Assembly (NCBI RefSeq): GCF_056712565.1
Contig: NZ_CM160072.1
Strand: one strand, 5' to 3'
Length of the DNA stretch: 64,000 nt
The translations under genes and the position numbers were made by a program. Positions within the stretch are counted from its first letter, which is position 1. The number at the start of each line of letters is the position of its first letter. Positions 23,127 to 32,698 of this stretch are shown here, in pieces. The notes under the pieces were generated by a model that was given only the letters and a program-made list of their open reading frames with translations, ran no database searches and had not been told where the DNA came from.

Positions 23127-23905
23127 TATTCCCACCCAGAATAACCAACTTTATTTTTATGCGGTCTCACCGCACCCCGTGATGTCGCCGGGAAGCCCCG
23201 GTAAAAAATAATTAGCATTAGAATAGTTGCGATAAGCTGCAATAAGCAGACCCACCTTTTTGGTTTAATAAGTCCTTACAAATAGAAGGGGGTCTTTACA
23301 CTTATCTAAGATTTTTCCTAAATCGACGCAACTGTACTCGTCACTACACGCACATACAACGGAGGGGGGCTGCGATTTTCAATAATGTGTGATGCAGATC
23401 ACACAAAACGCTCAATTACTTAACATAAATGTATAAGTCATACTTTTGTTTTGGGTGTATTTCAATCTGTTAAAAAATTTTTCGCTACACTGGCAAGCAA
23501 AAATGAAACAGGAATAATCGAAATGGGATGTTGCGCACAGTTAAAATAACTCACCGTAAATAATCATCTGCTATAAATAATCGCTTTAATGCAATACCAG
23601 ATAAGCCATTTTTAAACAAACACTTACCGCACAACAAACTAATTAACTACAAAGAAAGGCAACAATCAACCCAATGTTAATAAAATGTTTTACATATATT
23701 AACCACTTGTTCAATATGGGAAATCAGTACATTATTTTCTTATAAATACAGTTGAAATCATATGATAACCAAGAGCAATTGATTAATTGTATTTACTAAT
23801 GACCAGACTAATATTTACCTGTTTAACTGAGTTGGGATTGCGTCGTTTCTCCATTAGGAGTAAAGCTTTAATGTCACCTGAAGTTCACAGAATAAGGAAC
23901 AGGTT
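23127..23905. promoter_or_regulatory. flhDC class I promoter / long 5' UTR and divergent uspC promoter region
   Basis: 779-bp AT-rich non-coding interval between divergent flhD and uspC; no ORF of note on either strand. Confidence 0.6.
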
Positions 23906-29291: not shown

Positions 29292-30281
29292 TTACTTACC
29301 GCCTAAACCTTTTTTCTCCAGTTCTTCTTTAAAGTTGTCACGCGTGATCAGCACCACGTCGGTAACTTCGGTGAATTTGGTCGGTTCAACACCTTTTGCA
29401 ACCCAGTTGTAAAGCATTTCGCTGGACTTATAACCATGTACGTCCGGGCTTGGCAGCAGGGAACCGTAGAAGCCGGTTGCCTGTGCCTTAGACAGTTCAC
29501 TCACCGCATCCACACCGTTAATACCGATACCGATGATATCGCTCGCTTTAAAGCCCTGACCTTCCGTCGCGCGTACGCCGCCCAGCACGGTGCTGTCGTT
29601 CATACCGACAATCAGCCAATGTTTAACTTCCGGATGTTGAACCAGCATTGAGTTGGCAGCGTCAAATGCCCCCGGGATGTCGTTAGATTTGGTAGGTACC
29701 TGATAAATTTGTTTTTCCGGGAATCCTGCAGCTTTCAGCGCATCCATAGACCCCGTAGTACGGCGACGAGCCGTATCCAGTTCGTTGGAGGTAATCGCCA
29801 TCACCGCGCTTTCTTTGACATCCCAGCCACGTTTCTGCATCTCTTTATACAGTTCCTGGCCCTGACGTTCGCCAATTTTGGTCGCAGCCATCATCACCAG
29901 CGGAACGGTATCCATTGGCTTACCTTTGGCGTTAACAAACTGGTCATCCACGGCAATGACTTTCATATCGTAGCCACGCGCTTTCGCCACGATGGCAGAG
30001 CCGAGTTTCGGGTCCGGAGTACAAATAACGAAACCTTTCGCGCCACTGGCAGCCAGGCTGTCGATAGCGTTCAATGTTTTTTCGCCATCCGGCACGGCAA
30101 TCTTAATAACTTCAAACCCTAAATCCTTCCCGGCTTTATCGGCAAACTTCCATTCGGTCTGGAACCACGGCTCTTCCGGTTGCTTCACCAGGAAACCGAG
30201 CTTCAGGTTCTCCGCCATAGCGGATTGTGACATAACGGCTGCCAGACCAATGGCTGCCAGGGCTTTAGTAAATTTGTGCAT
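29292..30281 (-). CDS. araF: L-arabinose periplasmic binding protein AraF
   Basis: ORF 29292..30332; start set at MHKFTKALAAIGLAAVMSQSAMA (329 aa) with signal peptide. Confidence 0.9.
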   Translation of the reverse strand: MHKFTKALAAIGLAAVMSQSAMAENLKLGFLVKQPEEPWFQTEWKFADKAGKDLGFEVIKIAVPDGEKTLNAIDSLAASGAKGFVICTPDPKLGSAIVAKARGYDMKVIAVDDQFVNAKGKPMDTVPLVMMAATKIGERQGQELYKEMQKRGWDVKESAVMAITSNELDTARRRTTGSMDALKAAGFPEKQIYQVPTKSNDIPGAFDAANSMLVQHPEVKHWLIVGMNDSTVLGGVRATEGQGFKASDIIGIGINGVDAVSELSKAQATGFYGSLLPSPDVHGYKSSEMLYNWVAKGVEPTKFTEVTDVVLITRDNFKEELEKKGLGGK

Positions 30282-31077
30282 GGTTCTCTCCAGCTTTAGT
30301 GTCGTTTTGTGTAGGGCAAAAACGAATGACATTCGTTAAATTAATCGGAAAACAAAGCATTACCTTTTAACTAAAAGATAAGTGACTGTGTTGACATAGT
30401 TTTAGCGAGAAATTAATTCTCCATAGGAGAGCAATATCACATCGCAGAATTACAGTGAAAACGTGCATAAATTTAGCGGGAAAAGACATAAGGAAAAGCG
30501 AATTTGTCAGACAAATTATCGAGTGCACAGCAGAATAATCCATAAGATTAGCCTGGAAGTCCTTGTTGTCTTTGGTACCCATGCGGGATGTCTTCTTTTT
30601 AACCAGTCAATAGGCCTCATTACCTGGCGTTGAGTTTTTGCAATGGTGTAATAACCGCAACTTAAAGATGTGGAAAATGCGCGTCATTCATTTCGCCATT
30701 AATTATCACTGTACTCATTAATTAACAGAACACGTATAATGAGAGCTATATCGCAAAAATGAAAAAACGTTTTATAAAATCATTGCTTCATCATGAATTC
30801 AAATTCATCGATTAATATCAACAAGATACAAAAAGCACCATCATTAAAATTCATTACAGTTACATTGATTTCATCAATGAAATGTAAAAATATATAAACT
30901 TGATGATTTAAGCATTTTCTTATACCCGTTCAGACGTTATTCTTATTTCAGATCATCGTCAGAATTGACTCCACGATCACATTTCGGACCGGCAGAAAGG
31001 AATTATTCTGCAAACAGTAATTATGGTGTTTTGATTTATCTTGCACCTCTCCACTTCTGGATATAAGGATATTAGGT

Positions 31078-31581
31078 ATGGCAACCGCTGGAATGCTTCT
31101 CAAACTCAACTCTCAAATGAACCGCGAGTTTTACGCATCCAATCTCTACCTTCACCTGAGTAACTGGTGTTCTGAACAGAGTCTGAACGGCACCGCCACT
31201 TTCCTTCGCGCCCAGGCACAGAGTAATGTGACCCAAATGATGCGCATGTTTAACTTTATGAAGAGTGTCGGCGCTACCCCCATCGTTAAAGCCATTGATG
31301 TTCCCGGTGAAAAACTGAACTCTCTGGAAGAACTGTTCCAAAAAACGATGGAAGAATACGAGCAACGTTCAAGCACGCTGGCGCAGTTAGCCGATGAAGC
31401 GAAAGAACTGAATGATGATTCAACCGTCAATTTCCTGCGCGATCTGGAAAAAGAACAGCAGCATGATGGCCTGTTACTGCAAACCATTCTTGATGAAGTG
31501 CGCAGTGCGAAACTTGCTGGTATGTGTCCTGTGCAGACCGACCAACATGTTCTGAATGTCGTGTCGCATCAGCTACATTGA
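31078..31581 (+). CDS. ftnB: Ferritin-like protein FtnB
   Basis: 167-aa ferritin-family ORF; conserved position. Confidence 0.85.
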
Positions 31582-31585
31582 TCAT

Positions 31586-31620
31586 CATCGGCGCTAATGC
31601 ATTGCGCCGATGAAGTTTTT
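31586..31620 (+). terminator. Rho-independent terminator after ftnB
   Basis: catcggcgc...gcgccgatg hairpin followed by a T-run; a second hairpin (aaccgctgc...gcagcggtt, ~31624-31660) may serve yecJ on the other strand. Confidence 0.6.
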
Positions 31621-31658
31621 GAGAAACCGCTGCCTCATTTTTTTGAAGCAGCGGTTTT

Positions 31659-31910
31659 TTAATGGGATTCGCCCTGTGGGGTAAACTTGAGTTCAATCAA
31701 CGCGATGGCTTTTTGGATTGCCCGCATGGTGACCGGGTCTGCGGCGGCGGGATGGTTAGTAAAGTCGATATTCTTCAGCTGGCTGGACATTTTTTCGCGA
31801 ACTTCAACGGGCGCGATCACATCGAGAACATCCAGAATTTGTTTGATAACCAACTGGCAAGCAACCACATCAGAAACCAGTTCCTGATCGGCATTCAGCG
31901 GCTGGGACAT
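31659..31910 (-). CDS. yecJ: Uncharacterised protein YecJ
   Basis: 83-aa ORF at the conserved position between ftnB and yecR. Confidence 0.7.
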
Positions 31911-32023
31911 CGTAAACTCCTGATAGCATTTTGAAAGCCTTTATAGTAGCGGCTTCACATCTTCAGCGATAGTCACATCCACCGTCATCAGAACACAAAA
32001 AAACCTGCCGGAGCAGGTTTTTT

Positions 32024-32110
32024 GTTATCGGAACATATTGCCTGGCGGTACGTCTTTGAACGTCTTGCAATAGTTATTGAACATACTTTTCAGGATCTTG
32101 CGCAGTTTCA
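32024..32110 (-). CDS. azuC: Small membrane protein AzuC (28 aa)
   Basis: Minus-strand ORF encodes MKLRKILKSMFNNYCKTFKDVPPGNMFR*, matching the known 28-aa small protein at this locus; not in the ORF track because it is below the length cut-off. Confidence 0.8.
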
Positions 32111-32374
32111 TCGCGGTACTCCGACCATTTGTTATACAGGTGTTATTGTCTTTACATTTATAATATGACAACCATCACAAAAATCAATCTTTATGTGATG
32201 TAAATCACATAAATACCCCTTTAATGTTATAAAAATGATAATCAAAAAGCAGCCCCCCCAATTTCTAACACATACAGATGGCAAGAAATAGCGCCTGCCA
32301 GGCGTCTTTTCCGGCCATTGTCGCAGCGCTGTAACGCGTAAAATACTGCTTTCTTTTACTCTTCTGGCTGGACC

Positions 32375-32698
32375 ATGAGACTTCTGATTCTGACTCTTTC
32401 CTTAATAACGCTGACAGGATGTACGGTTACTCGCCAGGCCCATGTGAGCGAAGTTGACGCGGCAACAGGTATTGTTCGGTTGGTTTATGATCAGGCTTTT
32501 TTGCAGCATGCCAGTACCGATCGTTATGTCAGTCGCGGGATCGCCGATCGCGCATGCCAGCAGGCAGGCTATACCCACGCTATCCCCTTTGGTCAGCCAG
32601 TAGGCAACTGTAGCCTCTTTGCGGGTTCCTTATGTTTGAATACGGAATTCACTTTGTCATATCAGTGCCATCATTCCGCCTTCCCTGTCTTTCTCTAA
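32375..32698 (+). CDS. yecR: Lipoprotein YecR
   Basis: 107 aa with lipobox (LITLTGC). Confidence 0.75.
   Translation: MRLLILTLSLITLTGCTVTRQAHVSEVDAATGIVRLVYDQAFLQHASTDRYVSRGIADRACQQAGYTHAIPFGQPVGNCSLFAGSLCLNTEFTLSYQCHHSAFPVFL

What the first reader, a model, noticed from the sequence alone, without database searches (positions are those of the whole stretch)
30282..31077. Large 800-bp AT-rich interval between divergent araF and ftnB
This is an unusually long intergenic region for E. coli. It should hold the araFGH promoter and the ftnB promoter. A 71-codon minus-strand ORF (30367..30582) lies inside it but has no recognisable features and low-complexity composition.
Basis: inference. Interest (0 to 1): 0.25.

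Follow-up and report, generated by a model that had tools for sequence, protein, structure and literature searches.

The report
Long araF–ftnB regulatory spacer, gene-loss scar
The 796-bp AT-rich gap between araF and ftnB is an ordinary pair of well-studied E. coli control regions, and it is long probably because Escherichia lost a small DJ-1-type gene that related bacteria still carry there; the 71-codon reading frame inside it is not a gene.

Summary
Window 30282..31077 is exactly the araF–ftnB intergenic region: 796 bp, 34.5% GC, and the longest gap in this 64-kb window. The window is E. coli ATCC 11775. The gap is the same length in K-12 and is present in 5412 of 5426 complete E. coli genomes, with nothing annotated in it.

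It has three parts:
- 30282-30567 is the araFGH control region. It is conserved across genera and carries AraC half-site pairs and a CRP site.
- 30874-31077 is the ftnB promoter plus its published 127-nt CsrA-bound leader. It is conserved across genera and carries a CpxR box, a sigma-S-like -10 and four GGA motifs.
- 30568-30873 is an Escherichia-specific, very AT-rich spacer. It diverges at or above the fourfold-site rate and holds an FNR box that is a perfect consensus in K-12.

In 26 loci from Citrobacter, Salmonella, Enterobacter, Leclercia and others, a 185-aa DJ-1/PfpI gene sits between araF and ftnB. All Escherichia loci lack it without a detectable remnant. The two non-coding flanks in C. 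koseri sum to 807 bp, so the long gap is best read as a gene-loss scar.

The 71-codon ORF has a stop at codon 16 in K-12 and in 79% of complete E. coli genomes. It lacks its start codon in most other Escherichia species.

Verdict: ordinary, already known, low interest.

The parts
30282..30392 (-). araF 5' untranslated leader, including the Shine-Dalgarno region. The upstream limit is inferred, with the transcription start at about 30390-30394.
   Evidence: The blocks CATGGTTaaCTCCAGCTTTAG and TGTAGGG next to the ATG, and AAAACAAGGCATTA at 30349-30362, are conserved across genera. The start is inferred from a CRP site centred 41.5 bp upstream. It was not measured here.
30357..30396 (-). Possible second, proximal araF promoter: a TAATGC -10-like element (30357-30362) and a CRP-like site AGTGACTGTGTTGACA (30381-30396).
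   Evidence: The CRP-like match has 2 mismatches and is conserved only within Escherichia. The TAATGC element is invariant across genera. PMC3141248 reports a second araF promoter in vitro without giving coordinates. The assignment is inferred.
30399..30404 (-). Inferred -10 hexamer (TAAAAC on the araF strand) of the main araFGH promoter.
   Evidence: It lies 41.5 bp from the conserved CRP site relative to a start at about 30392, in a block that is 95% invariant within Escherichia and conserved across genera. It is two changes from TATAAT. That fits my recollection of Hendrickson et al. 1992, a paper not held by the tools.
30426..30441 (-). CRP (CAP) site: TGTGATATTGCTCTCC on the araF strand.
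   Evidence: It matches the CRP consensus with 2 mismatches. The TGTGA half and GAGAGC are invariant in 17 sequences from about 8 genera. PMC2893085 states that at ParaFGH the CRP site overlaps -35 and AraC lies upstream.
30453..30490 (+). AraC site nearest the promoter (probably araFG1): two direct-repeat half-sites 21 bp apart, CAGTGAAAACGTGCATA and TAGCGGGAAAAGACATA. Their orientation is opposite to araI relative to the direction of transcription.
   Evidence: The half-site at 30474 matches TAGC-N7-TCCATA with 2 mismatches. The half-site at 30453 has 3 mismatches by my own count. Both are conserved across genera. The name araFG1 comes from literature I recall and was not tested.
30528..30565 (+). 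Upstream AraC site (probably araFG2): half-sites CAGCAGAATAATCCATA and TAGCCTGGAAGTCCTTG, 21 bp apart.
   Evidence: They match the consensus with 1 and 2 mismatches. By my recollection of the araI sequence, the junction ATCCATAAGATTAGC (30538-30552) equals the araI1-I2 junction; the araCI1I2 oligo in PMC2893085 carries the same string. The site is conserved across genera.
30367..30582 (-). The 71-codon ORF. It is rejected as a gene; it is an accidental open frame lying over the AraC and CRP sites.
   Evidence: There is a stop at codon 16 in K-12. The stop allele occurs in 4301 complete genomes and the open allele in 1085. In the five more distant Escherichia loci the ATG is absent and four of them also have frameshifts; the closer L003 keeps the ATG but is frameshifted. 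Differences by codon position are about equal, for example 13/15/13. There is no Pfam match. C. koseri has only a 41-codon version.
30568..30807 (.). Escherichia-specific AT-rich spacer with no detectable constraint, at the position where related genera carry a DJ-1/PfpI gene and its upstream region.
   Evidence: blastn and nhmmer find no homology outside Escherichia. No DNA-profile or protein-profile remnant of the DJ-1 gene is found. Divergence across the whole centre (30568-30873) is 0.43-0.48 plus 11-18 gap columns, against 0.27-0.37 at fourfold sites. There is no Rfam match, no conserved small ORF and no phage or mobile-element match.
30808..30821 (+). FNR box TCGATTAATATCAA. In K-12 it is the perfect consensus TTGATTAATATCAA. 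It is centred about 136 bp upstream of the ftnB start.
   Evidence: One mismatch in the window. K-12 has T at 30809. The right half, ATATCAA, is conserved in the genus. PMC3212961 cites Partridge 2007, which found that FNR binds the E. coli ftnB promoter unusually far upstream. That this is the same site is inferred.
30884..30898 (+). CpxR box GTAAAAATATATAAA, centred about -60 from the ftnB start.
   Evidence: One mismatch to GTAAA-N5-GTAAA. It is conserved across genera as GTAA-N6-GTAA. ftnB belongs to the CpxR regulon (PMC2731931 and PMC7657598).
30908..30943 (+). ftnB core promoter: the conserved near-palindrome TTAAGnATTTTCTTAT over the -35 region (30908-30923) and a -10 of TATTCT (30938-30943). 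In other species the -10 context is cTATGCTTA, which resembles sigma-S promoters.
   Evidence: The blocks are conserved across genera and their positions are given. No binding protein was identified for the palindrome. The sigma-S assignment rests on resemblance to the known sigma-S -10 consensus and is inferred.
30951..31077 (+). ftnB 5' leader of 127 nt, with four GGA motifs (30986, 30999, 31059, 31067) and a hairpin GCAGAA/UUCUGC (30992-31011) that presents GGA in its loop. CsrA binds here and blocks the Shine-Dalgarno sequence.
   Evidence: PMC6686035 reports a 127-nt 5' UTR probe with four GGA motifs, three footprinted CsrA sites and the strongest site over the Shine-Dalgarno sequence. 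Exactly four GGA motifs lie in this 127 nt. The hairpin is paired in 93% of cells, against 32-65% when the partners are slid, with one compensatory G-C to A-U pair in 4 sequences. It also appears in the minimum-free-energy fold.

Best explanation
The interval is two ordinary, already characterised control regions placed back to back and separated by unconstrained filler.

Leftward (araF): cAMP-CRP binds next to RNA polymerase at a weak promoter, and arabinose-bound AraC binds direct-repeat half-site pairs just upstream. Together they switch on araFGH.

Rightward (ftnB): a weak promoter about 127 nt upstream of the start codon is helped by CpxR, and probably by a distant FNR site. It is probably dampened by H-NS bound to the AT-rich DNA. 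CsrA then blocks translation by binding GGA motifs in the leader, including the ribosome-binding site.

The gap is unusually long because the ancestor had a DJ-1/PfpI (glyoxalase III-type) gene between araF and ftnB. The Escherichia lineage lost that coding sequence, which joined the two former intergenic regions (about 318 + 489 bp) into one of about 800 bp. The middle has since drifted freely.

The 71-codon ORF is a chance open frame created by a single A/T polymorphism in the window's lineage.

Shown here: the coordinates, composition, conservation pattern, motif positions, ORF decay, and the presence or absence of the DJ-1 gene. Taken from the literature: the AraC/CRP order, and CsrA, CpxR, FNR and H-NS regulation. 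Inferred: the exact araF start and site names, the identity of the FNR site, H-NS binding in E. coli, and the deletion as the specific event.
For: Three-part conservation:
- Within Escherichia the invariant fraction is 0.7-0.95 at both ends and 0.05-0.35 in the centre.
- Against other Escherichia species, divergence is 0.14-0.16 on the araF side, 0.06-0.08 on the ftnB side and 0.43-0.48 in the centre. Fourfold-degenerate sites of araF plus ftnB diverge by 0.27-0.37.
- Across genera, blastn homology covers only 30282-30567 and about 30880-31073.

Regulatory motifs:
- AraC half-sites, CRP, CpxR and FNR matches were found. Their conservation is shown.
- Three AraC-type matches fall within 92 bp of the gap, against 46 in the whole 128 kb of both strands.

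Literature:
- CRP overlaps -35 and AraC lies upstream at ParaFGH, and all known elements lie within a fragment ending at about window 30659 (PMC2893085).
- ftnB has a 127-nt leader with four GGA motifs and three CsrA sites (PMC6686035), matched exactly in the window.
- ftnB is CpxR-dependent.
- In Salmonella ftnB is H-NS-bound, H-NS-repressed and FNR-activated, and E. coli has a far-upstream FNR site (PMC3212961).

Gene loss:
- A 185-aa ORF matching PF01965 (E = 9e-30) and TIGR01383 lies between araF and ftnB in 26 loci from Citrobacter, Salmonella arizonae and diarizonae, Enterobacter, Lelliottia, Leclercia, Silvania and Huaxiibacter.
- All 7 Escherichia loci fetched from other genomes, plus K-12 and the window, lack it. 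Its DNA has no match in 5426 complete E. coli genomes.
- Three Citrobacter lineages carry independent internal deletions of the gene.
- The non-coding flanks in C. koseri are 318 + 489 = 807 bp, against 796 bp here.
Against: - No transcription start was measured here, and the primary araFGH promoter papers could not be read. Two promoter layouts fit the sequence: a CRP site at 30426-41 or one at 30381-96.
- The simple sigma-70 scan found no promoter-like site in 30100-31300, against 3.3 expected from shuffles. That fits activator-dependent weak promoters but gives no positive support.
- The central 306 bp shows no recognisable homology to the DJ-1-ftnB spacer of other genera. Its descent from that spacer, rather than replacement by unrelated DNA, rests only on the length match and a few shared short motifs.
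- Within E. coli the centre differs less (0.042) than fourfold sites do (0.097). This could mean some constraint, or only the lower mutability of AT-rich DNA.
- H-NS binding at this locus in E. coli was not shown. The 7-fold local excess of H-NS-type motifs is largely explained by AT content.
Confidence: 0.85

Rival explanations
1. The central AT-rich segment is a functional, lineage-specific element. It could be an H-NS nucleation platform that silences ftnB (as published for ftnA), a distal ftnB promoter using the conserved TATAAT at 30735-30740, or an unannotated small RNA left from the orphaned promoter of the lost DJ-1 gene.
For: - GC falls to 24.5%, and H-NS-type motifs are locally enriched, with 8 of 88 window matches in 1.2% of the sequence.
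- In Salmonella ftnB is H-NS-bound and derepressed without hns (PMC3212961).
- Short islands are conserved within the genus: TTAATTATCAC, ATAATGAGAGC, CATCATCATGA and AATATCAA.
- Within E. coli the centre diverges less than fourfold sites do.
- The segment is kept in 5412 of 5426 genomes.
Against: - At genus level it diverges at or above the neutral rate, with many indels.
- There is no Rfam match, no convincing terminator or sigma-70 promoter match and no conserved ORF.
- A natural IS1-mediated deletion that removes everything left of 30875 is carried by one complete clinical genome.
- H-NS silencing needs only AT-rich DNA rather than a specific sequence. If true, this rival therefore shades into the main explanation.
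Confidence: 0.12
2. The 71-codon minus-strand ORF (30367..30582), or its conserved 42-codon C-terminal part, encodes a real small protein.
For: - The ORF is open in the window and in 1085 complete genomes.
- The C-terminal 40 or so codons (MSFxAKFMHVLTVILRCDIALLWRINFSLKLCQHS) remain open in all Escherichia species and in C. koseri.
Against: - There is a TAA at codon 16 in 4301 of 5426 genomes, including K-12.
- The start codon and the length differ in every species, ranging from 41 to 71 codons.
- Substitutions are spread evenly over the three codon positions, and nonsynonymous codon changes far outnumber synonymous ones, for example 21 against 7 and 26 against 2.
- The conserved part coincides exactly with the AraC and CRP sites, which explains its conservation at the DNA level.
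- There is no Pfam match and no RefSeq annotation in K-12 or ATCC 11775.
Confidence: 0.02
3. The long gap results from insertion of foreign AT-rich DNA into Escherichia, and the DJ-1 gene was acquired separately by the other genera.
For: - The centre has no homologue outside Escherichia.
- It is far more AT-rich than its surroundings.
- Its divergence between E. coli and other Escherichia species exceeds the fourfold-site rate.
Against: - There is no match to phages or to true plasmids. No repeats, insertion-sequence ends or tRNA are annotated here.
- The DJ-1 gene sits in the same place and orientation in genera on both sides of Escherichia in the accepted Enterobacteriaceae phylogeny, namely Salmonella and Citrobacter as well as Enterobacter and Leclercia. 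One loss is therefore more parsimonious than many gains.
- The same spacer is also poorly conserved among Citrobacter species and undetectable between genera, so lack of homology is expected.
- The length matches the sum of the two ancestral non-coding flanks (807 against 796 bp).
Confidence: 0.05

Closest known systems
araFGH promoter of E. coli (AraC- and CRP-dependent; Hendrickson et al. 1990 and 1992; Johnson & Schleif 2000)
   Same: It is the same locus. CRP lies adjacent to RNA polymerase and AraC direct-repeat sites lie upstream (PMC2893085). The motifs are found and conserved in the window.
   Different: Nothing differs in kind. The window strain differs from K-12 by 7 substitutions in 30282-30567, all upstream of 30458. 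The exact start site and site names could not be checked because the primary papers are not held.
ftnB (yecI) promoter and CsrA-repressed 5' leader (Pourciau et al. 2019, PMC6686035); CpxR regulon member
   Same: The 127-nt leader with four GGA motifs is identical to K-12, with no differences in 30857-31077. The CpxR box lies at about -60.
   Different: None. Cross-genus conservation of the GGA-loop hairpin and of a near-palindromic box over the -35 region is shown here. No binding protein was assigned to that box.
ftnA upstream region, where Fe-Fur reverses H-NS silencing (Nandal et al. 2010, cited in PMC6686035)
   Same: It is a long AT-rich region upstream of a ferritin gene in the same neighbourhood. 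H-NS represses ftnB in Salmonella.
   Different: No Fur box was identified here. Fur did not affect the E. coli ftnB fusion (PMC6686035), and H-NS binding in E. coli was not tested.
Gene-loss scars (fused intergenic regions left after deletion of a non-essential gene) in Enterobacteriaceae
   Same: The flanking non-coding DNA is kept and the coding sequence is gone. Intermediate decay states are seen in three Citrobacter lineages. A parallel araFGH deletion scar is seen in Salmonella diarizonae.
   Different: No remnant of the coding sequence is left, so the deletion end points can be placed only to within about 30568-30873.

Membership tests
AraC/CRP-activated arabinose promoter (araFGH type) | Direct-repeat AraC half-sites (TAGC-N7-TCCATA) spaced 21 bp apart, upstream of the regulated gene. 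| tested here: met
   Pairs lie at 30453+30474 and 30528+30549. Matches have 1-2 mismatches at 30474, 30528 and 30549 and are conserved across genera.
AraC/CRP-activated arabinose promoter (araFGH type) | A CRP site between the AraC site and RNA polymerase, overlapping -35. | tested here: inconclusive
   A conserved CRP-like site lies at 30426-30441 directly downstream of the AraC pair. This agrees with PMC2893085. Without a mapped start, its distance to RNA polymerase is inferred, and a second candidate exists at 30381-30396.
AraC/CRP-activated arabinose promoter (araFGH type) | Arabinose- and cAMP-dependent transcription of araFGH. | not testable with these tools
   Taken from the literature (PMC2893085 and PMC8489885).
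CsrA-repressed mRNA leader | Several GGA motifs in the 5' leader, one overlapping the Shine-Dalgarno sequence and preferably one in a hairpin loop. | tested here: met
   Four GGA motifs lie at -92, -79, -19 and -11. The hairpin at 30992-31011 has GGA in its loop and is kept in 93% of cells, with one compensatory pair.
CsrA-repressed mRNA leader | Direct CsrA binding and translational repression. | not testable with these tools
   Shown experimentally for the K-12 sequence, which is identical here (PMC6686035).
CpxR-regulated promoter | A GTAAA-N5-GTAAA box upstream of the promoter. | tested here: met
   GTAAAAATATATAAA lies at 30884-30898 with 1 mismatch. The whole window has 7 such matches against 3.7 expected.
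FNR-regulated promoter | A TTGAT-N4-ATCAA box, typically centred near -41.5. | tested here: inconclusive
   The box at 30808-30821 has 1 mismatch here and is a perfect consensus in K-12. It is centred at about -136, which is not the usual position. The literature says the E. coli site is unusually far upstream. Only the right half is conserved in the genus.
Protein-coding gene (the 71-codon ORF) | The open frame, start codon and length are kept in relatives, with an excess of synonymous change. | tested here: not met
   The frame has a stop in 79% of E. coli genomes. The start is lost or the frame is shifted in the other species. Substitutions are even over codon positions.
Known non-coding RNA family | A match to an Rfam covariance model. 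| tested here: not met
   No match at E <= 1 inside 30282-31077.
DJ-1/PfpI pseudogene remnant | Residual DNA or protein similarity to the DJ-1 gene of related genera. | tested here: not met
   tblastn gave E > 3. An nhmmer profile of 26 genes found no hit, and a protein profile against six-frame translations gave E > 3.

The most novel reading that the evidence does not exclude
The Escherichia-specific AT-rich centre (about 30568-30873) is not inert filler. Under this reading it is a lineage-specific regulatory platform created by the loss of the DJ-1 gene. H-NS would spread over it, a far-upstream FNR site and a possible distal promoter (TATAAT at 30735) would act within it, and together these would couple or insulate araFGH and ftnB expression differently from genera that still carry the intervening gene.
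Probability: 0.1. Interest if true: 0.35.

Novelty: already known. Interest (0 to 1): 0.12.

Why it matters
It matters little beyond good annotation. The region's working parts have already been described experimentally: the AraC/CRP control of araFGH, and the CpxR, FNR and CsrA control of ftnB.

Two things are added here. The first is a simple evolutionary reason for the unusual length, namely loss of a DJ-1/PfpI gene that relatives keep between araF and ftnB. The second is a clear population-level rejection of the 71-codon ORF. Both are useful for avoiding a false gene call, and for anyone who uses this large non-essential gap as a chromosomal insertion site.

Tried and rejected
- Rfam scan at E <= 1 over 29800-32500: nothing inside the gap. 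The only hits were weak and below threshold, near azuC.
- Simple promoter and terminator scan: no sigma-70-type site. The two weak terminator-like hairpins lie inside conserved protein-binding DNA or in unconserved DNA.
- Search for a remnant of the DJ-1 gene in Escherichia by tblastn, a nucleotide profile and a protein profile: none found.
- Search for homology of the central 306 bp outside Escherichia by blastn, a genus-level nhmmer profile, and the phage and plasmid collections. The only matches were E. coli chromosome-like records filed as plasmids.
- RNAalifold on the ftnB leader segment predicted no consensus structure. The hairpin was supported only when named explicitly.
- The whole leader does not fold better than shuffled sequence, z = -0.18.
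- Small ORFs in the gap: none conserved. The exception is a TTG-initiated 33-codon frame inside the ftnB leader. It is conserved as leader sequence, its changes are all amino-acid-altering, and it is disrupted by indels in other genera.
- The primary araFGH promoter papers could not be read: PMC101909, PMC207364 and Stringer 2014. The supplement of PMC3141248 is also not held. The araF start site and the names araFG1 and araFG2 therefore rest on inference and on my recollection.
- An H-NS motif count showed a local excess, but this is confounded by AT content.

Full report
**Identity and observation.** The window is 100% identical over this interval to E. coli ATCC 11775 (= DSM 30083). The araF start codon is at 30281 on the minus strand and the ftnB start codon at 31078 on the plus strand. 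The finding's coordinates, 30282..31077, are therefore exactly the intergenic region of 796 bp. GC is 34.5% overall and falls to 24.5% at 30700-30899, against about 50% in the flanking genes. In the RefSeq annotation of this strain it is the longest of roughly 65 intergenic gaps in the 64-kb window. The next is the uspC-flhD region at 779 bp, and all others are 512 bp or less. The gap is also 796 bp in K-12 MG1655 (1986129-1986924), with no gene, RNA or repeat annotated in either genome. It is present in 5412 of 5426 complete E. coli genomes. The 71-codon minus-strand ORF at 30367..30582 exists as described.

**Three parts by conservation.** I aligned the gap from the window, K-12 and six other Escherichia species-level genomes, including E. 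albertii and E. whittamii. Both ends are highly conserved and the middle is poorly conserved.

| Segment | Divergence from other Escherichia species | Gap columns |
|---|---|---|
| araF side, 30282-30567 | 0.14-0.16 | 1 |
| Centre, 30568-30873 | 0.43-0.48 | 11-18 |
| ftnB side, 30874-31077 | 0.06-0.08 | 0 |
| Fourfold-degenerate sites of araF + ftnB | 0.27-0.37 | not applicable |

Between the window and K-12, all 20 differences fall in 30459-30856 and the two ends are identical. Across genera, blastn homology is limited to 30282-30567 (72-77% identity to the araF upstream region) and to about 30880-31073, the ftnB upstream region. A nucleotide profile of the centre finds nothing outside Escherichia.

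**The araF side.** Matches to the AraC half-site consensus TAGC-N7-TCCATA with two or fewer mismatches lie at 30474, 30528 and 30549, all on the plus strand. With a weaker site at 30453 they form two pairs spaced 21 bp apart: 30453+30474 and 30528+30549. By my recollection of the araI sequence, the second pair shares the junction ATCCATAAGATTAGC with araI1-I2 of araBAD; the araCI1I2 oligo in PMC2893085 carries the same string.

Three such matches within 92 bp compare with 46 in the 128 kb of both strands of the window. All four half-sites, and a CRP-like site at 30426-30441 (TGTGATATTGCTCTCC on the araF strand), are conserved in 17 sequences from about eight genera. PMC2893085 states that at ParaFGH the CRP site overlaps -35 with AraC upstream. 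It also states that a fragment whose distal primer maps to about window 30659 contains all known regulatory elements.

Placing the conserved CRP site at -41.5 gives a start near 30392 and a -10 of TAAAAC at 30399-30404. This fits my recollection of Hendrickson et al. 1992: a weak -10, no -35, and a double change toward consensus needed for AraC-independent activity. That paper is not held, so the assignment is inferred. A second layout is possible, with a CRP-like site at 30381-30396 that is conserved only in Escherichia and a TAATGC element at 30357-30362. It may correspond to the second araF promoter seen in vitro with the sigma-S holoenzyme in PMC3141248.

**The ftnB side.** PMC6686035 used a 127-nt 5' UTR probe with four GGA motifs. 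It footprinted three CsrA sites, the strongest over the Shine-Dalgarno sequence, and showed direct translational repression. In the window, the 127 nt upstream of the ATG (30951-31077) contain exactly four GGA motifs and are identical to K-12.

The second GGA sits in the loop of a GCAGAA/UUCUGC hairpin (30992-31011). That hairpin is in the minimum-free-energy fold. It is paired in 93% of cells across 17 sequences, against 32-65% for slid controls, and has one compensatory G-C to A-U pair.

Upstream lie four further elements:
- a -10 of TATTCT (30938-30943), which reads cTATGCTTA in other species and so resembles sigma-S promoters;
- a strongly conserved near-palindrome TTAAGnATTTTCTTAT over the -35 region (30908-30923), with no binding protein identified;
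- a CpxR box GTAAAAATATATAAA (30884-30898), conserved as GTAA-N6-GTAA across genera, which fits ftnB's membership of the CpxR regulon;
- an FNR box at 30808-30821, further upstream and inside the variable centre, with one mismatch here and a perfect consensus in K-12.

PMC3212961 reports that FNR binds the E. coli ftnB promoter unusually far upstream. It also reports that Salmonella ftnB is FNR-activated, H-NS-bound and H-NS-repressed.

**Why the gap is long.** I fetched 38 loci encoding FtnB relatives. In all seven Escherichia loci the araF-ftnB distance is 789-800 bp at 34-35% GC. In Citrobacter, Enterobacter, Lelliottia, Leclercia, Silvania and Huaxiibacter it is 1000-1435 bp at 39-47% GC. 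The difference is a 185-aa minus-strand gene. It matches Pfam DJ-1_PfpI (E = 9e-30) and just passes NCBIfam TIGR01383, DJ-1 family glyoxalase III. The gene is intact in 26 loci, including Salmonella enterica subsp. arizonae and diarizonae.

Escherichia shows no remnant by tblastn, by a nucleotide profile of the 26 genes, or by a protein profile against six-frame translations. The gene's DNA has no match in 5426 complete E. coli genomes. Three Citrobacter lineages carry independent internal deletions of the gene, and one Leclercia genome has a frameshift, so the gene is repeatedly lost.

The gene is in the same place in the closest relatives of Escherichia and in more distant genera. By the accepted phylogeny, loss in the Escherichia lineage is therefore the parsimonious reading. 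In C. koseri the two non-coding flanks are 318 and 489 bp, a total of 807 bp against 796 bp here. The distal part of the DJ-1-ftnB spacer is also poorly conserved among Citrobacter species and undetectable between genera. The lack of homology of the Escherichia centre is therefore expected, although replacement by unrelated DNA is not strictly excluded. The centre has no phage or true plasmid match.

**The 71-codon ORF.**
- In K-12 codon 16 is TAA, because window position 30535 is A here and T in K-12.
- Exact-word searches find the stop allele in 4301 complete genomes and the open allele in 1085, out of 5426.
- In the five more distant Escherichia loci the ATG is absent, and four of them also have frameshifts. 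The closer L003 keeps the ATG but is frameshifted. Only a 41-58-codon C-terminal frame with varying starts stays open in Escherichia species and C. koseri.
- Differences are spread evenly over codon positions, for example 13/15/13. Nonsynonymous codon changes far outnumber synonymous ones.
- There is no Pfam match.
- The conserved C-terminal part coincides with the AraC and CRP sites, which explains its conservation.
- No other small ORF in the gap is conserved, apart from a TTG frame inside the ftnB leader that is conserved as leader sequence.

**Verdict.** The interval is an ordinary, already characterised pair of divergent control regions. About 300 bp of fast-evolving AT-rich filler lie between them, and this filler most likely marks the loss of a DJ-1/PfpI gene in the Escherichia lineage. 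It probably serves at most as an H-NS substrate and as the carrier of a distal FNR site. Nothing here is surprising to a specialist, so interest is low.

Noticed in passing
L010 1047-1700 (Salmonella enterica subsp. diarizonae): The conserved araF promoter block and the first araF codons are fused to a C-terminal araH remnant next to otsB. This is an internal-deletion scar of araFGH, while the neighbouring DJ-1 gene and ftnB are intact. It mirrors the Escherichia state, where araFGH is kept and the DJ-1 gene is lost.
   Followed up: partly
L008, L015, L039 (Citrobacter spp.), about 2300-2480 in each locus: Three Citrobacter genomes carry different internal deletions of the DJ-1/PfpI gene, which shrink the araF-ftnB distance to about 1000-1130 bp.
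   Followed up: yes
L037 1896-2454 (Leclercia adecarboxylata NCTC13032): The DJ-1/PfpI gene is split into two ORFs of 119 and 77 aa. This is a frameshift or a sequencing error.
   Followed up: no
L043 3036-4201 (E. coli Ecol_542; corresponds to window 30875 leftward): An IS1 element with an adjacent deletion has removed part of otsA, all of otsB and araHGF, and the gap up to window 30874. Only the conserved 203 bp upstream of ftnB remain.
   Followed up: partly
window 23388-23403 and 32194-32209: There are two perfect CRP consensus sites (TGTGA-N6-TCACA). One is in the uspC-flhD intergenic region and the other lies between azuC and yecR.
   Followed up: no
window 31965-32171: The 28-codon azuC gene (MKLRKILKSMFNNYCKTFKDVPPGNMFR) lies inside a longer mechanical ORF at 32025..32171 on the minus strand. 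Weak Rfam hits to STnc370 and rsmX, both below threshold, lie at 31965-32078.
   Followed up: no
window 30908-30923: The near-palindrome TTAAGnATTTTCTTAT over the ftnB -35 region is among the most conserved non-coding blocks across genera. I could not assign a binding protein to it.
   Followed up: partly
L014 about 2685-2705 and the equivalent positions in other Citrobacter and Salmonella loci: A conserved palindrome of the form TGAAAC-N3/4-(G)TTTCA lies in the DJ-1-ftnB spacer of Citrobacter and Salmonella and is absent from Escherichia. It is a candidate regulator site of unknown identity.
   Followed up: no
window 47700-47900 (record 2131686-2131837): RefSeq annotates a frameshifted fragment of a Tar-ligand-binding-domain gene between tar and cheR in this strain, at the position where K-12 (from my own knowledge, not checked here) has tap.
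   Followed up: no
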